Of a stretch of 43,663 bases of DNA, positions 6,920 through 42,165 are shown in pieces; position 1 is the first letter of the stretch, and each line of letters opens with the position of its first letter. The notes under the pieces are model-generated. The model ran no database searches. It was not told where the DNA came from and saw only the letters and a list, made by a program, of their open reading frames with translations. The DNA lies in the sequence record PZ445529.1; one strand, given 5' to 3'. The translations under genes were made by a program, and so were the position numbers. This DNA comes from a phage.

Positions 6920-9207
6920 AAGACTTCGAACGCCTGTTTCTCGATACCGAGACATTTAGCGGGGTGGACCTGAAGAAAGTAGGGGCGTACGCCTACGCAG
7001 AGCACCCAACCACCGAGATTATGATTTGCACATACGCCATCGACGAGGGTCGCGTGCAGACATGGGACGCCACTGAATCCCCCACAATGCCGCGTGAACT
7101 GCGCAAGGCGCTCCGCCGGGTAACCCGCAAGAAAGCAAAAATCGTGATGGCTAACGGCCTCCTGTTTGACCGCCTGGTTATCCGTGAGAAGTGGGGTATT
7201 GACCTGCCCGTAAGCCAGATCGAAGACACCATGATTATGGCCTTTCGCCACGCGCTGCCCGGTAGCCTCGATATGCAGTGCCAGGTGTTGGGCGTTGACG
7301 CAGAGCACGCGAAGGATAAGGCAGGCAAGGCGCTGATCAAACGATTCTGTAAGCCTACCCCTAAGACCTACAAAATACGCCGCTACACTCGCGAGACTCA
7401 CCCAGAAGAGTGGGCCAAGTTTCTGCGCTATGCCGCGCTGGATATTGTTGCCATGCGTGAAGTCTACTGGCGCATACCGGACTGGGGCAACTCACCGAAG
7501 GAAGATGAAATCCTGCTCATCGACCAGTTGATCAACGACCGCGGCTTCTATGTGGACGTTGACCTGGCGAACGCCGCGATCAAAGCGGTGCAGGCGCATA
7601 AGGAAGAATTGAAGGAAGAAGCCTGGGAGCGATTTGGCGGTAAACTGACAGGCAATGACTTTCTGCCAATCCTGCGTGATATCGCACCGGCGTTTACAAT
7701 CCACAACGCGCAGAAATCCACACTTAACGACCTGCTTGAAGACCCGGACTTCCCCGACGAAGGCAAAGCGCTTATCGAAATGCGCCTCGGAGCGTCATCA
7801 ACGGCATCGACTAAGTACAATCCGCTAGTTAATGGCCTGTCGGCCGATGGTCGCCGCCGTGGGTGTCTTCAGTATGGTGGTGCAAAGCGCACGCTGCGCT
7901 GGGCGGGTAAAGGCTTCCAGCCTCAAAACCTGGCACGCGGCGAGTATAGCGACGATCACGAAGGGAAGATTAAGCGCCGCGAAGGCGAGAGCGACGTCGC
8001 TTTCTGGGTCCGGTCGCATATGCTCACCAACGGCATAAACTCCCTGTTACGCGGGACCGCACACTGGGCGTATGACATATCTAAGCTGACCGCCTCGACC
8101 GTTCGCGGGTGCATCATTCCGGCGAAGGGCAAGAAGTTTGTCGTCGCGGACTACTCCAACGTGGAAGGGCGTGGCCTTGCCTGGATCGCGGGCGAGAAAA
8201 CCGCGCTAATGGTGTTTAAGGCCGGACGCGATATCTATTGCGAGACTGCCGGTAAGATGTTCGGCCTTGACCCGGATTACATTAAAGCCAACCGCAAGGA
8301 CTTACGCCAGATTGGTAAGGCGTGCGAATTGGGACTGGGCTATGGTGGCGGCGTCGCGGCGTTCTTGCAGTTCGCTAAAAACCTGGGCCTCGACCTTTAC
8401 ACTATGGCGGACGTGATGAAAGGCACGTTCCCGGATCACATTTGGGCGGCGGCGAAACGTGGTTATGAGTACGCCCGCATTAACGAAGCGAAGCGCCCGC
8501 CGAAGCCCGGTAAGAAAGACGAGCGCCCAACATACATACTGCCGAAAAACGTATGGCTTACCTGTGACGCGATCAAACGTATGTGGCGTGAGGCTCACCC
8601 GAAGACGGTAGCCTTTTGGGCCGAGCTTGAGGACGCGGTGTTGTGTGCAATCCGCAATCCGGGCAAAGCATACTGGGCTGGCGCGAACGTTCGCCCGGAC
8701 GGTAGGAAAGCGCTCAAGATTGTGCGCACGAAGGCGAAGCACGACCCAACCTTCGACGAGGAGCGCGACGACCCGAACGCCGCGGGGTGGTGGTTGAAAA
8801 TTGAGTTGCCGTCCGGGCGCATCATGAGCTACCCAGGCATCGCACTGTCGGTCACGACCGAGATCGACGAAGACACCGGCAAGAAGCGCACCAGTACCCG
8901 CATCAAATATCAGGGCGAGAATCAGACGACGCGCCAATGGGGGTTCCAGTACACCTACGGCGGCAAACTTACAGAGAACATCGTGCAAGCGTTGTGCCGC
9001 GATATTCTCGCGTGGTCCATGCCTGGCGTTGAAGCCGCGGGCTATGAGATCGTACTGTCAGTGCACGATGAATTGATAACCGAAGTGCCGGATACTGACG
9101 ACTACACGACCGAGGAGCTATGCGCGCTGATGTGCGACCTGCCTGTTTGGGCGAAAGGCTTCCCACTTGCCGCCGAAGGCGACATTATGATGCGCTACCG
9201 CAAATAA
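6916..9207 (+). CDS. family A DNA polymerase (Pol I-like) with 3'-5' exonuclease domain
   Basis: 763 aa; exo motif LDTETFSG; Pol A motif A ADYSNVEGRGLAW, motif B RQIGKACELGLGYGGG, motif C VHDELITEV. Confidence 0.9.
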   Translation: MKDFERLFLDTETFSGVDLKKVGAYAYAEHPTTEIMICTYAIDEGRVQTWDATESPTMPRELRKALRRVTRKKAKIVMANGLLFDRLVIREKWGIDLPVSQIEDTMIMAFRHALPGSLDMQCQVLGVDAEHAKDKAGKALIKRFCKPTPKTYKIRRYTRETHPEEWAKFLRYAALDIVAMREVYWRIPDWGNSPKEDEILLIDQLINDRGFYVDVDLANAAIKAVQAHKEELKEEAWERFGGKLTGNDFLPILRDIAPAFTIHNAQKSTLNDLLEDPDFPDEGKALIEMRLGASSTASTKYNPLVNGLSADGRRRGCLQYGGAKRTLRWAGKGFQPQNLARGEYSDDHEGKIKRREGESDVAFWVRSHMLTNGINSLLRGTAHWAYDISKLTASTVRGCIIPAKGKKFVVADYSNVEGRGLAWIAGEKTALMVFKAGRDIYCETAGKMFGLDPDYIKANRKDLRQIGKACELGLGYGGGVAAFLQFAKNLGLDLYTMADVMKGTFPDHIWAAAKRGYEYARINEAKRPPKPGKKDERPTYILPKNVWLTCDAIKRMWREAHPKTVAFWAELEDAVLCAIRNPGKAYWAGANVRPDGRKALKIVRTKAKHDPTFDEERDDPNAAGWWLKIELPSGRIMSYPGIALSVTTEIDEDTGKKRTSTRIKYQGENQTTRQWGFQYTYGGKLTENIVQALCRDILAWSMPGVEAAGYEIVLSVHDELITEVPDTDDYTTEELCALMCDLPVWAKGFPLAAEGDIMMRYRK

Positions 9208-9220
9208 CGGAAATAAGATT

Positions 9221-9583
9221 ATGAAAGCACCGATTAGCAAAATATTACACTTCCCAGCGAGGGTGCGGCTTATGTGCCCCAACTGTGGCACGGTGAGCAA
9301 CAACCACAAGCCTCACTCCATGCGTACTGAGTACTACTGGGACACGCGCGTGAGGCCGTCAACCGTGTTTTTGCATACGTGCTGCCGGTGTGGGTACACG
9401 GATAGCGACGGGCCTGGGTTTATTGACAGTGGGAACGACCATACCGAGGATTTCGTGAATATGGCGGAGTGGGAGCGCGAGGAGCGCAGACTGCAAGACG
9501 CACTTGACGAATTGAGACGTAAAATCGCGCGGGGGAAAGCGCTATGGGACCGCCGCTGGAACTCGACGGAGGATAGCCAGTAA
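9221..9583 (+). CDS. zinc-ribbon protein (120 aa)
   Basis: Cys pairs CPNCG...CCRCG; weak RBS. Confidence 0.5.
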   Translation: MKAPISKILHFPARVRLMCPNCGTVSNNHKPHSMRTEYYWDTRVRPSTVFLHTCCRCGYTDSDGPGFIDSGNDHTEDFVNMAEWEREERRLQDALDELRRKIARGKALWDRRWNSTEDSQ

Positions 9584-15820: not shown

Positions 15821-17389
15821 TTATTTACCTTCCAGCTTTTCCACTTTCCGCAACAGGTGAACGAAGGCGGCACACAGATCCATCAACAGCACGTTACTAT
15901 CTAGTGACAGCACATCGTCCGTATACCCGATTTCCTTTCGGTCGACTACAACTTCGTTGCCTTCCTCGTCCACCCCCTTGATATCCTCATAAATGGCATA
16001 ACCCGGCAGCAAGTGCACATATTCTGGGTCAATCCTTGCCAGATCCTGTGCGATAAGGCCGTATCGCTGTACGTCAGACTCCTTATACTTGAACATTGCC
16101 GGAAGCCATTGACGAACGCGGTTGTAGCTTTCCTCGCCGTCAGTGTATTGGATTTCTTTTTTAAGGTCGCGGTCCGATAGCGCCGCTTTCTGGAACTCGT
16201 TAACCGAAGGGTTGCTGCTGTTACCACTAATCAGCCTGCCGTCCGGTAGGAAGCGGAATAAAGCCTCCGCATAACCATCCTTCCACACGTGGACACGGTA
16301 GTCCGATAAGTGGGCATCGCCGCCCCTGACCAAGCCAGATCGTGTCCAATCCGTGTACCACTTATGCATCGTCTGCCCGACCCAGCTATCCATCCCGAAA
16401 GACGCGTTTGATATAATCAAACCGTTTCTTTCGACATCATTGAAGGTTAGCGATTCGCCTCCGTTCAGACGTAATGTTGCGTGTTTAACGATACTATCAT
16501 CACCAACGCCAAGATTAGCGCGTGCCGCCGATTTATCTGCGACGTCTGCCAGGTTCTGCGACTTCTTCATGAATTGCGTAGGGTCGATCGCGTTTTTGAA
16601 GTCTTCGGCTTCGTCCCGATACCCCTGCGCGGCATCGCGGGCGGCTTGCGCGTCCCTCTTCGCTGTATTGGCCTGATCTCGAATAACGCCGGTGTCAGTC
16701 TTGATCTGGTTCGTCTGCGTCTTGATGGCCTGCGTATCCGTCTTGATCTGGTTCGTCTGCGTCTTGATGGCCTGCGTATCCGTCTTGATCTGGTTCGTCT
16801 GCGTCTTGATGGCCTGCGTATCAGTTTTGATCTGGTTCGTCTGCGTCTTGATGGTATTGGTGGCGTCGCGAATACCCGCCGTCTCGGTCTTGAAGCCTTC
16901 TGCCTCATTGCGAAATCCTTGCGCGGCTGCTTCCGATGCGGCGGCTTGTTGTTGCAGGTCGCGCATTTCCACTGGGTCGATCTGTTTCATCAACTGCGAC
17001 AGATAGCCCCATGACATACCCTGCATGACTTGCCCGTTCGGCAGCGTTACGGTGATTTCTTCAGCGTCGCCGAAGATTGCACGCCAGTTGTTTTCATCGG
17101 CGATCATCAAACGAAATGCTTTCTGTGCCTGGACGGTAACGCCCATCGTAGTCAATGACATGGTGTCACGTTTGATGCCGTCCCAGGCTAGGCCGGTTGC
17201 CGTCGGGCCGTCGAACGGCAGCACCAGCGTAAGCGCCGTGTTACTTTTGATTGATGCGATCGCCACGGTGTAAGGAACTTGCCCTACCACCAGCGTTAAG
17301 AAGTCGCCAGCTTTAAACGCGGTAAACGTTGTGCCGACCCCTACTACCGCCTTGCTATTGTTCGTTACGGATAGCGTACCCGCTGCCAT
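15821..17389 (-). CDS. tail fibre with coiled repeat region and C-terminal intramolecular chaperone (peptidase S74-like) domain
   Basis: C-terminal SDRDLKKEI...YGLIAQDL...LLMDLCAAFVHLLRKVEKLEGK resembles autoproteolytic chaperone domains; start set at ATG 17389 (RBS GAGGA) rather than 17416. Confidence 0.65.
   Translation of the reverse strand: MAAGTLSVTNNSKAVVGVGTTFTAFKAGDFLTLVVGQVPYTVAIASIKSNTALTLVLPFDGPTATGLAWDGIKRDTMSLTTMGVTVQAQKAFRLMIADENNWRAIFGDAEEITVTLPNGQVMQGMSWGYLSQLMKQIDPVEMRDLQQQAAASEAAAQGFRNEAEGFKTETAGIRDATNTIKTQTNQIKTDTQAIKTQTNQIKTDTQAIKTQTNQIKTDTQAIKTQTNQIKTDTGVIRDQANTAKRDAQAARDAAQGYRDEAEDFKNAIDPTQFMKKSQNLADVADKSAARANLGVGDDSIVKHATLRLNGGESLTFNDVERNGLIISNASFGMDSWVGQTMHKWYTDWTRSGLVRGGDAHLSDYRVHVWKDGYAEALFRFLPDGRLISGNSSNPSVNEFQKAALSDRDLKKEIQYTDGEESYNRVRQWLPAMFKYKESDVQRYGLIAQDLARIDPEYVHLLPGYAIYEDIKGVDEEGNEVVVDRKEIGYTDDVLSLDSNVLLMDLCAAFVHLLRKVEKLEGK
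16698..16865. repeat. in-frame 42-bp tandem repeat (about 4 copies, 21-bp sub-period) encoding TDTQAIKTQTNQIK heptad repeats
   Basis: Unit gtcttgatctggttcgtctgcgtcttgatggcctgcgtatcc repeated head-to-tail. Confidence 0.85.
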
Positions 17390-17410
17390 AGCTAAATCCT
17401 CGTAAATTGG

Positions 17411-17439
17411 TTGCAATCCAGGTTGAGCGGTGTAATACT
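17411..17439 (+). promoter_or_regulatory. promoter-like element with ATTGGTTGCAA motif (-35 TTGCAA, -10-like TAATAC) upstream of the lipoprotein gene
   Basis: cgtaaattggttgcaatccaggttgagcggtgtaatact. Confidence 0.4.
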
Positions 17440-17469
17440 AAAACTCAACCAAATATAGGGGATGATACC

Positions 17470-17688
17470 ATGAAAACTTTAATTATGATTTGTGCGGTTC
17501 TTTTGTCCGGTTGTGCCAACATGCCCGCTAAAGTCTGCGACGCCACATACCAGAATAGCGGCATTGATTATGCGGTCCCTGTGTATGGTGTCGCAGACTT
17601 CTCCGGGCATAAAATGCTAAGGGCGGGTTATCCGTTTAGCTTCCAGTACGTGTCGGTAGACCATTTCAAAAACACCACCTGCGAATAA
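17470..17688 (+). CDS. small lipoprotein (73 aa) encoded antisense inside the tail gene block; candidate receptor-blocking/superinfection-exclusion protein
   Basis: Signal peptide with lipobox MKTLIMICAVLLSGC; RBS GGGGA; own promoter and terminator. Confidence 0.6.
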   Translation: MKTLIMICAVLLSGCANMPAKVCDATYQNSGIDYAVPVYGVADFSGHKMLRAGYPFSFQYVSVDHFKNTTCE

Positions 17689-17708
17689 TCCCCGAAAGGG
17701 GATTTTCC
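17687..17708 (+). terminator. terminator (aatcccc-gaaa-ggggatt + TTTT)
   Basis: Perfect 7-bp stem with GAAA loop directly after the lipoprotein stop. Confidence 0.6.
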
Positions 17709-18383
17709 TCAGTCGTAGTTGGCAGTGTTAATCGCCATGATTGCGTTGCCGTTATTCGTATACCCCACCACATCCCCCGTGGCGTTCCCTGACGACGCTG
17801 CCGATATACGCGTTCGCGACCCATCAAATCTGGCCCCCGTGTACGCCGTTACCGATACTACCTGCGGCTGGCCCTGCACAAAAAACCGGATCAGCGTTGA
17901 CCCCAATATGCCCGGTGCGACGGCGTAGCTGCCGTTTAGCGTCTGGTCAATGTTAATCCCCCCGTTAGCGCCAGGAGATCCGACGGTAACTAAATCGCTT
18001 AATACGCGACTCTCATTAGTAAGCACTAGCTTCCCCGTCTTACCCCAAATAGCGAAGCCCCACCGCGGAAGGGTCTGTGGGAATATGGCAAAGATGTAAG
18101 CCGTCATAGTGAAGCCTTGCCCGAATGGATTGCTGGCGCTCACCTTCACCACATTACCAACGCGAGAAGACCCTACGACGGTCGGCTGGGCGGTGTGCGT
18201 AGTTTTCACAAACGCTATTGCAGGGTAGTCACCGCCCAAATTAATATCGGCAGCCGCCGACTGCGCAGTGCCGTTAGCCGAAGACCCAACAACCACACGG
18301 CGGAATAGACAAAACGGCGTCGATTCTGGCGTGATAAACGGGTTGCCGTTTGGTAAGTCAATCAACGCGCCGTAATTAGCCAT
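17709..18383 (-). CDS. hypothetical tail-associated protein (224 aa)
   Basis: ORF downstream of the J-like gene; start overlaps upstream stop. Confidence 0.5.
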   Translation of the reverse strand: MANYGALIDLPNGNPFITPESTPFCLFRRVVVGSSANGTAQSAAADINLGGDYPAIAFVKTTHTAQPTVVGSSRVGNVVKVSASNPFGQGFTMTAYIFAIFPQTLPRWGFAIWGKTGKLVLTNESRVLSDLVTVGSPGANGGINIDQTLNGSYAVAPGILGSTLIRFFVQGQPQVVSVTAYTGARFDGSRTRISAASSGNATGDVVGYTNNGNAIMAINTANYD

Positions 18384-18685
18384 TAAGCTCGCTCCACAAA
18401 AACAATAACGTCACATTCAGATGCGGAGTAAACCCCGCCACCTACCGCACTTGCCGCGGAAACCGTGATAGTGTTCCCGCTGGCGGTTATTCTGCGTCCT
18501 GGCCCGACCGCGCCTTTATCCAGTGCGACCACGTATCCGACCCTCATCCCCGCCGGTACTGGGAACGACCACGCGCCTGATTTTTGTCCTTCCGCAAGAT
18601 GAATCCTTCCGATCACGCTTACCGGTTTAATGCCGTAGTTGTTTGGGCGTCCTTGCGCGTCCCACGTTGCGATACCGAATGCCAT
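18383..18685 (-). CDS. hypothetical protein (100 aa)
   Basis: ORF with RBS GAGG after the J terminator. Confidence 0.5.
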   Translation of the reverse strand: MAFGIATWDAQGRPNNYGIKPVSVIGRIHLAEGQKSGAWSFPVPAGMRVGYVVALDKGAVGPGRRITASGNTITVSAASAVGGGVYSASECDVIVFVERA

Positions 18686-18721: not shown

Positions 18722-21700
18722 CTACCAGCGACCAGTAAGCTCGCCAATTTGCACGCGTAAAACACCGTTCGCGTCTTTAACGCTGTAGTTGGTGTTGGTC
18801 TGCTTTGTACCACCACCGCTTCCAGTACCCAGGTTGATAAACGTCCCGTCTTTGCCTAAGCGCCATCCGCGCGTGCTGCCGTCGTAGTTATTCGATTGCA
18901 GCGTGTCTGTGATCTGCGCGAAGTTGATGGACGCGTTCTTGATGCGGGCGGTGTCGATGTACACCTGACCACCGTCAACGATAAACGCGGACGAAAGCGA
19001 CCCATTAGACGGGTGCATGATGTAGAACTGGTCCGCCTTGAACGCGATGCGGGATTTAACCGCGCCACCTTCCGCAACAACTGAAAGCTGCATACCGGCA
19101 TCGTAGTAAGTCCCGTTATACGTCACGCCCGCCTTAAGGCTGTATGTGGCGTTGCCACCGGCATGGTTAAACGTGGACGTCATCTTCTGCTCGATAGCGG
19201 CGGACTGCTGACCGAACTGTGCCGCGACCTGGGTCTTGTACTCCGCCAGCGCGCCCGCTACGTCTGCCGTTGCTGTTTGTACCTGCTGGATGGCAGCTTC
19301 CTGTTCCGAAAACTTAGCGGCAACAGTTTGCTGGTACTGGGCGAAGGCTTGCTCGTGCGTGCTTTGCGCTGTCTGCAACGTGTGGATCGCCGCTTCCGCA
19401 TCGTCAAGTCGCGTGCCGATCAACGTTTCCAGTTGAGCTACCGCCTTGTGGGCGTCCGCCGCCACGTTATACGCCACCTTGATTTCCGCATAAATGCCCT
19501 TGTACTCGGCGCGGGCGTTGAACAATTGCTGCGCGTCGGTGAGCATCGCCTCATAAATGCCTTGCGGCATGGTGTCGATCGCTTCCTGGAAGCGTTTACC
19601 ATCTTTGGAAGTCAGGAACTCGTCATCAAGCCCCTTCATATACTCGTCAACATTGTCACTCACCTGCCCTTCAAACGGGGCAGACCAGTCAGACAGGTTG
19701 CCGATTTTATCCGCTACACGGGCGCGCAACTGCTGATAGATGCCGAACTCCAGCGACGTTTGCGCATACTCCGACCCAGGATATGGGACGTTGGTTAAGA
19801 ACTTCCATTCCGTTTCACCGGTCTTGCGCACTTCAAGCTCGGTGTACGAAATATCCGTCGCGGCGTTGTTGTGGTTCCACTTCCACAAAATCTGGTGAAG
19901 GCCGGAAACTGCTGCCGTAATGATAGGCGCGTTAAGACCGCCGAGACGACCTTCGATCGGCGTGATGGCAGACGACACCCACGGTGATGAAATCTCGCCC
20001 ATACCGATCGCGCGAACGCGTGCCTGATAGTTACCGGAAAACACGTTTGGGATATGCGCGCCATTCGATGCCGTGCGGGGAATGTTCACCCAGTCGTTAC
20101 CCCACTGGATTTCCATATTCTGTAAGCTGGTACGTCGCCACTGGATTTCATACACCACGGCATCCTTCACCGGCGGGAATACAATATCCACGTTGGTGAT
20201 TAGCTGGCCTTGCGATGAAATCTGCGACTGGGTGATGGTCACGGACTCCGGCCCCTTCATTACGCCGTCAGGAACTTGCGTAAAGATGCCTGGGTCAAGG
20301 CGAGCGCCATTATCGACGGCATCATATTTGCTATCGTTGTACTCGATCCCGCGCACTGAAAAAGTGCTGGTAGAGTCGTCATATTCCAGGTCGGTAATGC
20401 GGAACTTCTGCAACTGGATATCGTTGCCATCAACGCAAAACGGCTGGTCTGGAATAGGGTCGGCGTCCAGTGCGGTTTTTAGCGTAACCTTGTTGCCGTT
20501 GACGCTGGCGATCTCGCGAGTCTCCACATTACCGCTATCGGTGCGTACAAGGAACTTATCGCCAGGGCGGAACGTGATTTCGCAGTCCGTGTTCAGCACG
20601 GTGCGAGTGCCCGGATCTGACAACAGGCGACCGCCGCGTGTCTCGAAGCCGCCAGAAATGTTTGTATCGGCGATCGCGACTACGCTACCCGGAATAAAGA
20701 AAAGTCCCTCCATGCCAACCTTAAAGCTAACTTGCTGGTCAAGCTGGTTGGAGATTAGCGCCCAGTGCCCACGTCGTTGCGCTTCTGATTCACGCGTACA
20801 TCCGATCGCCGTAATATCCAGACGATTAATCTTATGGCGGCGTACCAGTTCGACACGCTGTCCCGTTGCGATGGCGTCTTCATAGTGGTTCTTCGGGTTG
20901 CCGTATGCTACCGCGAATGTGGAATACCGAGTTTTCTGGCTGCCGGACGCGTAGTCGAATCGGCCATCAATTACCGAGGCGTTGGTGATGGTGTGCGATA
21001 CCGCTGCGACCGGCTGATCGCTTACGATATTCAACATCTGGTTGCCCCACCAGGTCATACCAGCAAAGATAGCGGCTAAATCCTTAAGCACGGTCCAGGC
21101 GTCGGTCTGCGACTGAATGTACATATCATTCTTAAATCGGATTTCCCGCCCGCCGTTGCCATCACTAACCAGCTGATCGCATCGCTGCGCAATCTGGTAG
21201 AGCGCGTACCGGTTCAGCATTTGCGGTTTGATCCGGCGACCTAGGCCGAAGCGTTCAGTAATACAAATATCGTACCAGTGCCACGCAGGATTATCCGTCC
21301 ATGCGCGTTTAAACGTGCCGTCCCAGTCGCCCGAATATGTATGATTAATCGGGTCGTAGTTGTTCGGGACCAGCACTTTGCGGCCTTTGCACTTGATGGA
21401 CACGCGCGGAATGTTCTGGAACGCTTTGGCGTCGAACTCCACGAACAACAGCGCAGTTAGCGGGTATCGCAGGCGGGCGTCGATAATCTCAGTGATGGAT
21501 TGCACCCGGATATCATTAACCACTTTCGCCGATGTGGAGTCTGCCGTTATGCGGTGCACCTCCACTCGCCAGCCAGTATTCACGTTCGGCGGTAATTCGA
21601 TGCGGTGGTCGCGCTCATATAGCGACATTGTTTTACCAACGGCGGCGAATCTGAACTCACGCGGGTCTGCGTTATCCGTATACACAACGATCTTATAGTC

Positions 21701-22141
21701 GATGCGCCCGCCCACCAGGTCGCCATTATCTTCGTTTGTGTACAGGGCCGGAATGCCGATTCGAATGCGCACGGCGTCAAGACTGGTGTCGTTAATCAGG
21801 CGCACCCACGGCGTGCCGTTTTCCAGTTTTACGCCTACGGATTGCTCACTTTCCACCGCTGAAAACCCGTGGATCACATCCTGGTGCTGTGTTCCTGGGC
21901 GGAACTCCACACGAGCGCCAGGGAAGTTTTCAGACAGATCGGCGTTCTGGATCGGTGTTCCGTCCAGATATACACGCTGCCGCAATTCGCTGGCGCTGGT
22001 AATACTTTCGAACTCACCTTCTCCCAGTGCGAGCAAGATGCGGATTTTAGCCAGGGAATGCAGGCTATCCGGCGTTTCCTGCGGGGTGTGCTGTTTGCCG
22101 CCGCCGCCTTTATGCCCTGTGACGTCGTAGATAATCGTCAT
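18722..22141 (-). CDS. central tail fibre / host specificity protein (lambda J-like)
   Basis: 1139 aa; position after I/K/L/M-like genes. Confidence 0.75.
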   Translation of the reverse strand: MTIIYDVTGHKGGGGKQHTPQETPDSLHSLAKIRILLALGEGEFESITSASELRQRVYLDGTPIQNADLSENFPGARVEFRPGTQHQDVIHGFSAVESEQSVGVKLENGTPWVRLINDTSLDAVRIRIGIPALYTNEDNGDLVGGRIDYKIVVYTDNADPREFRFAAVGKTMSLYERDHRIELPPNVNTGWRVEVHRITADSTSAKVVNDIRVQSITEIIDARLRYPLTALLFVEFDAKAFQNIPRVSIKCKGRKVLVPNNYDPINHTYSGDWDGTFKRAWTDNPAWHWYDICITERFGLGRRIKPQMLNRYALYQIAQRCDQLVSDGNGGREIRFKNDMYIQSQTDAWTVLKDLAAIFAGMTWWGNQMLNIVSDQPVAAVSHTITNASVIDGRFDYASGSQKTRYSTFAVAYGNPKNHYEDAIATGQRVELVRRHKINRLDITAIGCTRESEAQRRGHWALISNQLDQQVSFKVGMEGLFFIPGSVVAIADTNISGGFETRGGRLLSDPGTRTVLNTDCEITFRPGDKFLVRTDSGNVETREIASVNGNKVTLKTALDADPIPDQPFCVDGNDIQLQKFRITDLEYDDSTSTFSVRGIEYNDSKYDAVDNGARLDPGIFTQVPDGVMKGPESVTITQSQISSQGQLITNVDIVFPPVKDAVVYEIQWRRTSLQNMEIQWGNDWVNIPRTASNGAHIPNVFSGNYQARVRAIGMGEISSPWVSSAITPIEGRLGGLNAPIITAAVSGLHQILWKWNHNNAATDISYTELEVRKTGETEWKFLTNVPYPGSEYAQTSLEFGIYQQLRARVADKIGNLSDWSAPFEGQVSDNVDEYMKGLDDEFLTSKDGKRFQEAIDTMPQGIYEAMLTDAQQLFNARAEYKGIYAEIKVAYNVAADAHKAVAQLETLIGTRLDDAEAAIHTLQTAQSTHEQAFAQYQQTVAAKFSEQEAAIQQVQTATADVAGALAEYKTQVAAQFGQQSAAIEQKMTSTFNHAGGNATYSLKAGVTYNGTYYDAGMQLSVVAEGGAVKSRIAFKADQFYIMHPSNGSLSSAFIVDGGQVYIDTARIKNASINFAQITDTLQSNNYDGSTRGWRLGKDGTFINLGTGSGGGTKQTNTNYSVKDANGVLRVQIGELTGRW

Positions 22142-34212: not shown

Positions 34213-34237
34213 AAAAAGGGGCCATTACGGCCCCTTA
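34213..34237. terminator. bidirectional terminator between the moron (+) and the Rz1-like gene (-)
   Basis: aggggcc-attac-ggcccct with A-run upstream and T-rich downstream. Confidence 0.65.
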
Positions 34238-34455
34238 ATTATTTGCTGCAACTCCAGGACCTGCGCCCTCAGCTTAGCACCGCACTCCATATTTTTAACA
34301 TCAACCAGCAAATCTTCGTCTGGATCTGCCGAGGCATTCTCAAAGGTGCAAGGTGGCCTATAGACCGACTCGGTTAGCGGCGTCGATGGCACGTTGCTTG
34401 ATCCGCACGCGCTCATCATCAAAACTGCAATCAGGACGGTTAGGACGCGTAACAT
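34225..34455 (-). CDS. o-spanin (Rz1-like outer-membrane lipoprotein) overlapping the Rz-like gene in another frame
   Basis: 76 aa; signal peptide with lipobox LIAVLMMSACGSS; Pro-rich; RBS AGAGG. Confidence 0.65.
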   Translation of the reverse strand: MLRVLTVLIAVLMMSACGSSNVPSTPLTESVYRPPCTFENASADPDEDLLVDVKNMECGAKLRAQVLELQQIIKGP

Positions 34456-34666
34456 ATTTTACAACCTCTTTCGTGATAGTCCGGTATTCCACATCGCGGG
34501 TCTGTTCTGCTTGCACCGCCCCCTCGACGACCTTAGTTTGCTGCCGTTGGGCTTTCGCTTGCGCTTCTTGCGCCGCTCTCGCCTCAACGCCTGCGCGGTA
34601 GGAATCCCCCTGCCAGAATCCAACCGCCAGGCCTATTACCAGCCCAATCGCTGCGTATTTAATCAC
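34358..34666 (-). CDS. i-spanin (Rz-like)
   Basis: 102 aa; N-terminal TM helix AAIGLVIGLAVGFW then charged coiled segment; GTG start with GGGGG RBS. Confidence 0.65.
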   Translation of the reverse strand: MIKYAAIGLVIGLAVGFWQGDSYRAGVEARAAQEAQAKAQRQQTKVVEGAVQAEQTRDVEYRTITKEVVKYVTRPNRPDCSFDDERVRIKQRAIDAANRVGL

Positions 34667-41154: not shown

Positions 41155-41646
41155 TTATGCTGCGTTACGTCCGATCTTCTCGGCAACGTCCCACTGCTTA
41201 CCATCGAATAGCGCCTGCCTGCCGATTGCTCGACGGACTAACCCCTTCAGCACTTCCCCACCTTGCTTGCGGAATTGTGGCAGTATAGCCCGCACCTTTG
41301 CCCAGTCGCCCCGGCGGATCGCATCGTCGAAATCACCGGCTACGTCGTCCGGCATGATCGGACCAGGACCGGCATTGATTACCAGGTCCACCAGCGCGTC
41401 GAATTGCGCCTGATTGATGCTCGGGTGTGCGTACTTGTTCACCCAGTTCTCGGCATATGCCACATCGCGCTTGAGTAGCTCCAGTGCTTCCGCACGGGTA
41501 ATGCTTCGTGGCGGAGTAGTGCCAGTGTGCCCATAACCCCAGGTGTACAGGCCGCGGGCCTGCTCTTTCTTGGTCGCGAAATACGGCACCGGGCTGAAAG
41601 CCTCCCATGCTGCCGTAAATCGTAGACCGTTATCACTGAATCGCAT
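41155..41646 (-). CDS. endolysin (T4-lysozyme-like muramidase)
   Basis: 163 aa; N-terminal EAFSPVPY and TWGYGHT motifs. Confidence 0.75.
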   Translation of the reverse strand: MRFSDNGLRFTAAWEAFSPVPYFATKKEQARGLYTWGYGHTGTTPPRSITRAEALELLKRDVAYAENWVNKYAHPSINQAQFDALVDLVINAGPGPIMPDDVAGDFDDAIRRGDWAKVRAILPQFRKQGGEVLKGLVRRAIGRQALFDGKQWDVAEKIGRNAA

Positions 41647-41878
41647 GTTTTACCCCATTCAAAACAGCATTACGCAGCGTGCGCAATGCAAACAGCCAGA
41701 TTAACGCGGTCCAGGTGGTATCTGATACGTCTCCCGTTTGCAACAGCCCGACAATACAGGTCATTGCTGTTAGCAGATATAACACCCGACCGAAGAAGCC
41801 ATCCTGAACGGACGGCGCATACACGTTAAACAGGGACGAAGCCCCTATGATAACAAACAACAGGACGGAGATAATCAT
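41633..41878 (-). CDS. second membrane protein of the lysis cassette (holin/antiholin-like)
   Basis: 81 aa MIISVLLFVIIGASSLF...; ATG overlaps holin stop (ATGA). Confidence 0.5.
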   Translation of the reverse strand: MIISVLLFVIIGASSLFNVYAPSVQDGFFGRVLYLLTAMTCIVGLLQTGDVSDTTWTALIWLFALRTLRNAVLNGVKHAIQ

Positions 41879-42165
41879 TTTGCGCCCCCCGGAAGGTGTA
41901 GCGTCGCAATTGTCTCCCGGATCCGGTCGGCGATTGGCATCCAGAAGATGGCAGTTACGAAGCCCAAACCGGCGACAGTGCGCTCGCCAGACAAACCAGA
42001 CCACTCGGCAATAGCTGGCGCACCAAATATGGCACACAGGAAGCCAACTACGACATATAAAACGAAGTTCAACGGCCCTTTCGTTGCCTCGCCGTGAATG
42101 CGTGCGCCCACGAAGCCACCAGCAAGACACGCAAGGGCGAATAACCACTCGTTTAGCTTATCCAT
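41875..42165 (-). CDS. holin (three predicted TM segments, charged C-terminus)
   Basis: 96 aa; hydrophobic segments WLFALACLAGGFVGA, FVLYVVVGFLCAIFGAPAIA, VAGLGFVTAIFWMPI; immediately upstream of endolysin. Confidence 0.6.
   Translation of the reverse strand: MDKLNEWLFALACLAGGFVGARIHGEATKGPLNFVLYVVVGFLCAIFGAPAIAEWSGLSGERTVAGLGFVTAIFWMPIADRIRETIATLHLPGGAK

What the first reader, a model, noticed from the sequence alone, without database searches (positions are those of the whole stretch)
17411..17708. Small lipoprotein moron between tail fibre and tail tip genes: candidate receptor-masking superinfection exclusion factor
A 73-aa protein with a classic lipobox (LLSGC) is encoded on the plus strand with its own promoter and terminator, antisense to the flanking tail genes and next to the receptor-binding genes. 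This is the arrangement known for the small lipoproteins of T5 (Llp) and T1/phi80-type phages (Cor) that inactivate the phage's own outer-membrane receptor.
Basis: partly seen in the sequence, partly recalled or inferred. Interest (0 to 1): 0.62.

Follow-up and report, generated by a model that had tools for sequence, protein, structure and literature searches.

The report
Cor receptor-blocking lipoprotein of a Dhillonvirus

The parts
17411..17439 (+). Candidate sigma-70 promoter of cor: -35 TTGCAA (17411-17416), 17-nt spacer, extended -10 TGtAATACT (17431-17439)
   Evidence: Read from the sequence. It scores 8/12 plus TG, below the scan threshold. Only 5 such sites occur in the window. Both hexamers are invariant in 6 dhillonviruses. 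T1 cor has TTGCAA-17-TACAAT. Not shown experimentally.
17457..17462 (+). Shine-Dalgarno-like AGGGGA, 7 nt before the ATG (AGGAGA in most relatives)
17470..17688 (+). cor: 72-aa prolipoprotein plus stop. Signal peptide is aa 1-14 and the lipobox LSGC has Cys15 at 17512-17514. Mature protein is 58 aa, with the conserved Cys23/Cys71 pair and the (R)AGYPF motif.
17687..17704 (.). Stem-loop AATCCCC-GAAA-GGGGATT between the convergent cor and 224-aa genes. It is a candidate, possibly bidirectional, terminator and overlaps the cor stop codon.
   Evidence: dG -14.1 kcal/mol and z -3.1. A compensatory T-A to G-C change and a loop flip occur in relatives. It was not listed by the terminator scan because the T-run is short.
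17709..18383 (-). 224-aa gp23-like protein (PHROG 425), part of the FhuA-type host-recognition cassette downstream of J
   Evidence: It is 53-64% identical to the T1/phi80/N15/HK022 homologues and 99% to JLBYU37. The literature treats this locus as the bona fide RBP locus (PMC8594841; bioRxiv 10.64898/2026.04.02.716166).
18383..18685 (-). 100-aa gp22-like protein (PHROG 557), part of the same cassette
   Evidence: It is 52-72% identical to the T1/phi80/N15/HK022 homologues.
18722..22141 (-). J-like central tail fibre / tail tip protein, 1139 aa
   Evidence: 97% identical over its full length to J of the FhuA-dependent phage JLBYU37 (PMC10373560)
15821..17389 (-). Lateral tail fibre gene, divergent from cor. 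The likely ATG is at 17389, as annotated in the relatives.
   Evidence: PHROG 1980 at E 1e-123 and a Peptidase_S74 domain. The start is inferred from the Envy and JLBYU37 annotations.

Best explanation
The gene is cor of a Dhillonvirus. It encodes a 72-aa prolipoprotein. The steps below are inferred from the sequence signals, from the homologues and from the T5 Llp paradigm; none was tested here.

Sec exports the protein. Lgt, LspA and Lnt lipidate it at Cys15 and remove the signal peptide. [quoted passage not shown] The 58-residue mature domain is a small beta-barrel, presumably clamped by a Cys23-Cys71 disulfide. It binds the periplasmic face of FhuA, the phage's own terminal receptor, and locks FhuA in a state whose surface loops (notably L8) no longer accept the phage's receptor-binding proteins.

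The gene is transcribed on its own from a host-type promoter, antisense to the late tail genes. Cor would therefore be made early in infection. It would block superinfection by FhuA-dependent phages and stop progeny from being wasted on the debris of the lysed cell.
For: Shown here:
- Lipoprotein signal and lipobox.
- Cor family membership by two independent curated profiles and by direct BLASTP to the characterised Cor proteins of T1 and phi80, plus tblastn to N15 and HK022.
- Invariant Cys15, Cys23, Cys71, Gly53 and Pro55 in 83 family members.
- Purifying selection.
- Conserved cassette J / 100 aa / 224 aa / cor in T1, phi80, N15, HK022 and dhillonviruses.
- J is 97% identical to that of JLBYU37.
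- HK578, which has a different cassette (Rtp44/45-like), lacks cor at the same slot.
- The best PDB sequence-profile hit is also Llp (E 0.004).

From the literature:
- JLBYU37, JLBYU60, Teewinot, Envy and bob are FhuA-dependent, and the first three need loop L8 (PMC10373560).
- Cor of HK022, N15 and phi80 inactivates FhuA and reduces ferrichrome uptake (PMC3594210, citing Uc-Mass 2004).
- Llp binds periplasmically and makes EL7/EL8 fold inward (PMC9586334).
- The Cor cassette tracks FhuA use in BASEL Drexlerviridae and Dhillonvirus phages (PMC13164509).
Against: Nothing has been measured for this protein or for any Dhillonvirus Cor that I could find. The molecular mechanism of Cor is described as not yet elucidated (bioRxiv 10.64898/2026.03.26.714494). 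Work cited in PMC13164509 (Arguijo-Hernandez 2018) reports that Cor interacts with other outer-membrane proteins. Some Cor-like proteins occur in BtuB-using phages (PMC13164509), so family membership alone does not fix the target. The Foldseek match to Llp is weak (E 0.05) and similar in score to Tudor/SH3-like barrels. The promoter is below the consensus threshold and the terminator U-tract is short. Arg51 of the RAGYPF motif is replaced in two dhillonviruses.
Confidence: 0.85

Rival explanations
1. It is a Cor-family lipoprotein, but it excludes phages by a mechanism unlike that of Llp. For example, it might act together with other outer-membrane proteins, or block a step after reversible binding such as TonB-dependent irreversible adsorption or DNA ejection, rather than closing FhuA loops allosterically.
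For: The Cor mechanism is stated to be unresolved (bioRxiv 10.64898/2026.03.26.714494). Arguijo-Hernandez 2018, cited in PMC13164509, reports that Cor interacts with several outer-membrane proteins. Sequence identity to Llp is only about 22%.
Against: The predicted fold is that of Llp and the Cys pair is shared. A published AF3 model docks a T1-type Cor onto the periplasmic side of FhuA with ipTM 0.84 (PMC13164509). The close relatives depend on L8, the loop that Llp displaces (PMC10373560; PMC9586334).
Confidence: 0.12
2. It is a Cor-like lipoprotein that targets an outer-membrane protein other than FhuA, such as BtuB or another TonB-dependent transporter.
For: Cor-like proteins are reported in BtuB-using Tempevirinae and Markadamsvirinae phages (PMC13164509).
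Against: The complete three-gene cassette, which the literature associates with FhuA users, is present. J and the 224-aa protein are 97% and 99% identical to those of the experimentally FhuA-dependent JLBYU37.
Confidence: 0.03
3. It is an o-spanin (Rz1-like outer-membrane lipoprotein) used for lysis rather than an exclusion factor.
For: It is a small outer-membrane-type lipoprotein. There is a weak PHROG 456 spanin hit (E 0.077), restricted to the signal peptide.
Against: The window already encodes an overlapping Rz/Rz1-like pair at 34225-34666, with E 2.6e-25 and 1e-35. No i-spanin partner lies next to this gene. The Cor profiles score far higher.
Confidence: 0.01

Closest known systems
Cor of Dhillonvirus phages (e.g. 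Envy gp20 YP_009288142.1; JLBYU37_19; SM_W22 cor)
   Same: Same length (72 aa), 96% protein identity, same position and orientation, same promoter and hairpin.
   Different: Two or three amino-acid substitutions. The neighbouring lateral fibre is shorter here (522 aa against 805 aa).
Cor of phage T1 (Drexlerviridae)
   Same: 45% identical. Lipobox, Cys pair and RAGYPFSF motif are shared. It lies antisense to the same J / about 100 aa / about 225 aa cassette, with a TTGCAA-17 promoter and a GC hairpin after the stop.
   Different: In T1 the gene beyond cor is a recombination exonuclease rather than the lateral tail fibre. T1 Cor is 75 aa.
Cor of temperate phages phi80, N15, HK022 and mEp167 (experimentally shown to inactivate FhuA)
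   Same: 39-43% identical, with the same cassette order J / gp22 / gp23 / cor / side fibre.
   Different: There cor is co-oriented with the tail genes and is expressed from the prophage as a moron. It carries a 3-residue insertion before Cys23.
Llp of phage T5 (PDB 8A60 chain B; 7QJF)
   Different: Only about 22% identity. The sequence profile match (E 0.004) covers mainly the signal peptide and N-terminus. The partner RBP (pb5) is unrelated to the J-cassette proteins.
Rtp45-type exclusion lipoprotein (LptD-targeting), as in HK578 gp24
   Same: It occupies the same slot between J and the lateral fibre in other dhillonviruses. It is also a 76-aa lipoprotein, antisense to J (PMC12685063).
   Different: There is no significant sequence similarity beyond the signal peptide (E 0.013 pairwise). 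It targets LptDE and is paired with a different RBP (Rtp44-like).

Membership tests
Cor (phage exclusion lipoprotein; NCBIfam NF047972 / PHROG 1119) | Sequence match to the curated family model above its cut-off | tested here: met
   NF047972 equivalog at 55.7 bits against a cutoff of 31, E 3.7e-15. PHROG 1119 at E 7e-26 over residues 1-72.
Cor (phage exclusion lipoprotein; NCBIfam NF047972 / PHROG 1119) | Direct homology to experimentally characterised Cor proteins (T1, phi80, N15, HK022) | tested here: met
   BLASTP gives 45% (1e-22) to T1 and 42% (1e-18) to phi80. tblastn gives 40% to N15 and HK022.
Cor (phage exclusion lipoprotein; NCBIfam NF047972 / PHROG 1119) | Prolipoprotein of about 70-80 aa with a signal peptide and a lipobox cysteine | tested here: met
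   72 aa with LLSGC and Cys15, which is invariant in the 83-sequence alignment.
Cor (phage exclusion lipoprotein; NCBIfam NF047972 / PHROG 1119) | Conserved mature-domain cysteine pair and AGYPF motif | tested here: met
   Cys23, Cys71, Gly53 and Pro55 are invariant. Ala52, Tyr54 and Phe56 are at least 90% conserved.
Cor (phage exclusion lipoprotein; NCBIfam NF047972 / PHROG 1119) | Location in the J / gp22-like / gp23-like / cor cassette of FhuA-dependent siphophages | tested here: met
   Nearest relative JLBYU37 is FhuA-dependent (PMC10373560) and J is 97% identical.
Cor (phage exclusion lipoprotein; NCBIfam NF047972 / PHROG 1119) | Excludes FhuA-dependent phages and impairs FhuA functions when expressed | not testable with these tools
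   This needs plating, adsorption and ferrichrome-uptake assays.
Cor (phage exclusion lipoprotein; NCBIfam NF047972 / PHROG 1119) | Lipidation and outer-membrane localisation | not testable with these tools
   Only predicted, from the lipobox and Ala at +2 (the Lol sorting rule is established knowledge).
Llp (T5 lytic conversion lipoprotein) structural superfamily | Llp-like small beta fold | tested here: met
Llp (T5 lytic conversion lipoprotein) structural superfamily | Detectable sequence relationship to Llp | tested here: inconclusive
   The Cor profile against PDB gives 8a60_B as best hit at E 0.004, but the aligned stretch is residues 1-45, dominated by the signal peptide.
o-spanin (Rz1-like) | Match to spanin profiles, and an adjacent or embedded i-spanin partner | tested here: not met
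   There is only a signal-peptide hit at E 0.077. The true Rz/Rz1 pair is at 34225-34666.
Rtp45-type LptD exclusion lipoprotein | Sequence similarity to Rtp45 / HK578 gp24 | tested here: not met
   Pairwise E is 0.013, restricted mostly to the signal peptide.

The most novel reading that the evidence does not exclude
In virulent phages (Dhillonvirus, T1) cor has been inverted relative to its orientation in temperate phages. Its early transcript would then run head-on into the late tail operon. The conserved hairpin between cor and the 224-aa gene has a stem kept by a compensatory change and a loop that flips between GAAA and TTTC in different phages. Together with the unusually conserved 80-nt cor/fibre divergent region, it might act as a bidirectional terminator and timing switch. 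Such a switch would couple Cor shut-off to lateral-fibre expression through transcriptional interference or antisense RNA. My evidence does not exclude this, but it does not specifically support it either.
Probability: 0.1. Interest if true: 0.35.

Novelty: already known. Interest (0 to 1): 0.12.

Why it matters
Its practical value is for annotation. Together with the J / 100-aa / 224-aa cassette, the gene predicts that this phage uses FhuA as terminal receptor and that infected cells become refractory to T1-, T5- and phi80-type phages. That is relevant when designing phage cocktails. It adds no new biology. Cor in dhillonviruses is already annotated in GenBank and RefSeq, and its link to FhuA use is already described (PMC8594841, PMC13164509). 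The real open question is the experimental structure and mechanism of any Cor-FhuA complex, and this locus does not make that question easier to test than T1 or phi80 cor already do.

Tried and rejected
- Pfam and PADLOC give no hit for the lipoprotein or its two neighbours. Cor has no Pfam family, so absence there says nothing.
- Rfam at gathering threshold and a tRNA scan of the whole window found nothing, so no known RNA explains the region.
- The first word-index protein search with the single sequence found only 6 close relatives. A profile of dhillonvirus, T1, phi80, N15 and HK022 Cor proteins was needed to reach 264 family members.
I therefore assessed them by hand, by a custom count, by conservation and by folding.
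- The o-spanin reading was considered and rejected.
- Relationship to the alternative Rtp45-like lipoprotein of HK578 was tested and not found.
- I did not model the 100-aa or 224-aa proteins. Published Foldseek and HHpred searches found nothing for them (PMC13164509).

Full report
**Observation.** The sequence is MKTLIMICAVLLSGCANMPAKVCDATYQNSGIDYAVPVYGVADFSGHKMLRAGYPFSFQYVSVDHFKNTTCE.

The N-terminus is a textbook lipoprotein signal. It has Lys2, an uncharged hydrophobic core, and the lipobox L-S-G-C with Cys15. Residue +2 is Ala, which by the established Lol sorting rule predicts the outer membrane.

I applied a lipoprotein-signal pattern to all 1655 start codons followed by at least 40 codons, in six frames. 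Six ORFs passed the relaxed pattern, and this ORF was the only one to pass the strict pattern. The only other credible hit was an ORF at 34225-34455. That ORF is the phage's Rz1-like o-spanin and overlaps an Rz-like i-spanin.

The gene is antisense to both neighbours:
- On one side is the lateral tail fibre (15821-17389, -; PHROG 1980 at E 1e-123; Peptidase_S74 chaperone domain).
- On the other side are a 224-aa gene (17709-18383, -), a 100-aa gene (18383-18685, -) and the 1139-aa J-like tail tip gene (18722-22141, -).

Fifteen pairwise comparisons among six dhillonvirus copies give dN/dS of 0.06-0.26, with dS up to 0.8. The reading frame is therefore under purifying selection.

**Regulatory signals.** Seventeen nucleotides later comes TGtAATACT (17431-17439), an extended -10 element. 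The match is 8/12 plus the TG, below the 9/12 threshold of the consensus scan, which therefore did not report it.

Sites of this quality are rare. There are 5 in the whole window on both strands, against 6.7 +/- 2.8 in simulated sequence. By my estimate the chance of one falling in this particular 80-nt gap on the correct strand is about 0.006.

Both hexamers are invariant in six dhillonviruses, and the few substitutions fall in the spacer. T1 cor carries TTGCAA-17-TACAAT at the equivalent position. A Shine-Dalgarno-like AGGGGA lies 7 nt before the ATG.

After the stop codon there is a 7-bp stem-loop, AAUCCCC-GAAA-GGGGAUU (17687-17704). Its folding energy is -14.1 kcal/mol, with z -3.1 against shuffles. 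In Envy, JLBYU60 and jat the outer T-A pair is replaced by G-C, a compensatory change, and the loop reads TTTC instead of GAAA. The U-tract is short, so the terminator scan did not list it. An independent transcription unit is thus plausible and conserved, but it has not been demonstrated.

**Identity.**
- The protein matches PHROG 1119 "Cor superinfection exclusion protein" over its whole length (E 7e-26).
- It matches the NCBIfam equivalog model NF047972 "phage exclusion lipoprotein Cor" at 55.7 bits against a curated cut-off of 31.
- Pfam and PADLOC have no family for it.
- BLASTP gives 45% identity to T1 Cor (1e-22) and 42% to phi80 Cor (1e-18).
- tblastn finds HK022 Cor and N15 gene 24 at about 40%.
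- In an 83-member family alignment Cys15, Cys23, Cys71, Gly53 and Pro55 are invariant, and the AGYPF motif is nearly so.

**Genome context.** The window as a whole is a Dhillonvirus genome, about 92% identical over 93-97% of its first 25 kb to many sequenced members. The 501 bp around the gene are 95.6% identical to phage JLBYU37. The homologous 72-aa gene is already annotated as "Cor superinfection exclusion protein" or "super-infection exclusion protein cor" in Envy, Sloth, Gluttony, SM_W22 and others. The JLBYU37 copy is annotated as a putative super-infection exclusion protein.

The order J / about 100 aa / about 224 aa / cor is shared with T1, phi80, N15 and HK022. The two intervening proteins are 52-72% identical across these lineages, so they are better conserved than Cor itself.

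In the temperate phages cor is co-oriented with the tail genes, and HK022 annotates it as a moron. In T1 and the dhillonviruses it is inverted.

The type species HK578 carries a different cassette at the same slot. It has an Rtp44-like protein and a 76-aa Rtp45-like lipoprotein, and that lipoprotein is not detectably related to Cor beyond the signal peptide. The slot is therefore an exchangeable receptor-specificity module. The BASEL papers describe the same thing (PMC8594841; PMC11990801).

**Receptor inference.** J here is 97% identical, and the 224-aa protein 99% identical, to those of JLBYU37. JLBYU37, JLBYU60 and Teewinot are experimentally FhuA-dependent and require FhuA loop L8. Envy and bob are also FhuA-dependent (PMC10373560). 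A 2026 analysis found the full Cor cassette in the BASEL Drexlerviridae and Dhillonvirus phages that use FhuA (PMC13164509).

**Mechanism.** An AlphaFold2 model built on the 83-sequence alignment is confident over the mature domain. Mean pLDDT is 82.6, and about 92 for residues 21-70. The domain is beta-rich.

Llp binds FhuA from the periplasm and makes extracellular loops 7 and 8 fold inward (PMC9586334). Others have already concluded that Cor and Llp share a fold and probably a mechanism (PMC13164509; bioRxiv 10.64898/2026.03.26.714494). The latter source also notes that the Cor mechanism itself has not been resolved experimentally.

My best explanation, with export, lipidation, sorting and FhuA binding all inferred rather than shown, is that this is an outer-membrane lipoprotein made from its own host-type promoter. 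It would bind periplasmic FhuA and render it non-functional as a receptor. That would prevent superinfection and loss of progeny on cell debris.

**Rivals.**
- A non-Llp mechanism that involves other outer-membrane proteins remains possible (about 0.12).
- A target other than FhuA is unlikely given the cassette identity (about 0.03).
- An o-spanin role is excluded for practical purposes.

**Verdict.** The feature is an already annotated, well-populated family in a well-sampled phage genus. Novelty: already known. Interest: low.

Noticed in passing
window 34225-34666 (-): An overlapping Rz-like i-spanin (34358-34666, 102 aa) and an Rz1-like o-spanin lipoprotein (34225-34455, 76 aa, lipobox MSAC) lie beside head-morphogenesis and scaffold genes. 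They are about 7 kb from the two holins (41633-42165) and the endolysin (41155-41646), so the lysis genes are split between two places.
   Followed up: partly
window 16698-16854 (within the lateral tail fibre gene, -): A 42-bp tandem repeat is present in 3.7 copies with 98% matches. It encodes the 14-aa unit IKTQTNQIKTDTQA in the fibre shaft. The fibre is 522 aa here against 805 aa in JLBYU37 and Envy, and ends in a Peptidase_S74 intramolecular chaperone domain.
   Followed up: no
window 17687-17704 and homologous sites in L001, L006-L009: The hairpin between cor and the 224-aa gene keeps its stem through a T-A to G-C compensatory change. Its tetraloop is GAAA in some phages and the reverse complement TTTC in others, as if the loop had been inverted. 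It may act on both convergent transcripts.
   Followed up: partly
window 17390-17469: The 80-nt divergent region between cor and the lateral fibre gene is 97% conserved among six dhillonviruses, although synonymous divergence in cor reaches 0.6-0.8. This suggests regulatory constraint or a recombination boundary for module exchange.
   Followed up: partly
window 17709-18685 (-): [quoted passage not shown] By eye they have no signal peptide and no obvious transmembrane segment. They are better conserved across T1, phi80, N15, HK022 and Dhillonvirus (52-72%) than Cor is. The literature regards the locus as encoding the actual FhuA-binding proteins, so the labels look like legacy misnomers.
   Followed up: partly
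L011 (HK578) 8389-9551: The Dhillonvirus type species carries an Rtp44/Rtp45-like pair, consisting of an RBP and a 76-aa lipoprotein, in the slot that the gp22/gp23/cor cassette occupies here. This is a clear case of cassette swapping at a fixed genomic position.
   Followed up: partly
window 17482-17594 (-): Two sigma-70-like sites (9/12 each) lie on the minus strand inside cor and point toward the lateral fibre gene. They could be fibre promoters or chance matches.
   Followed up: no
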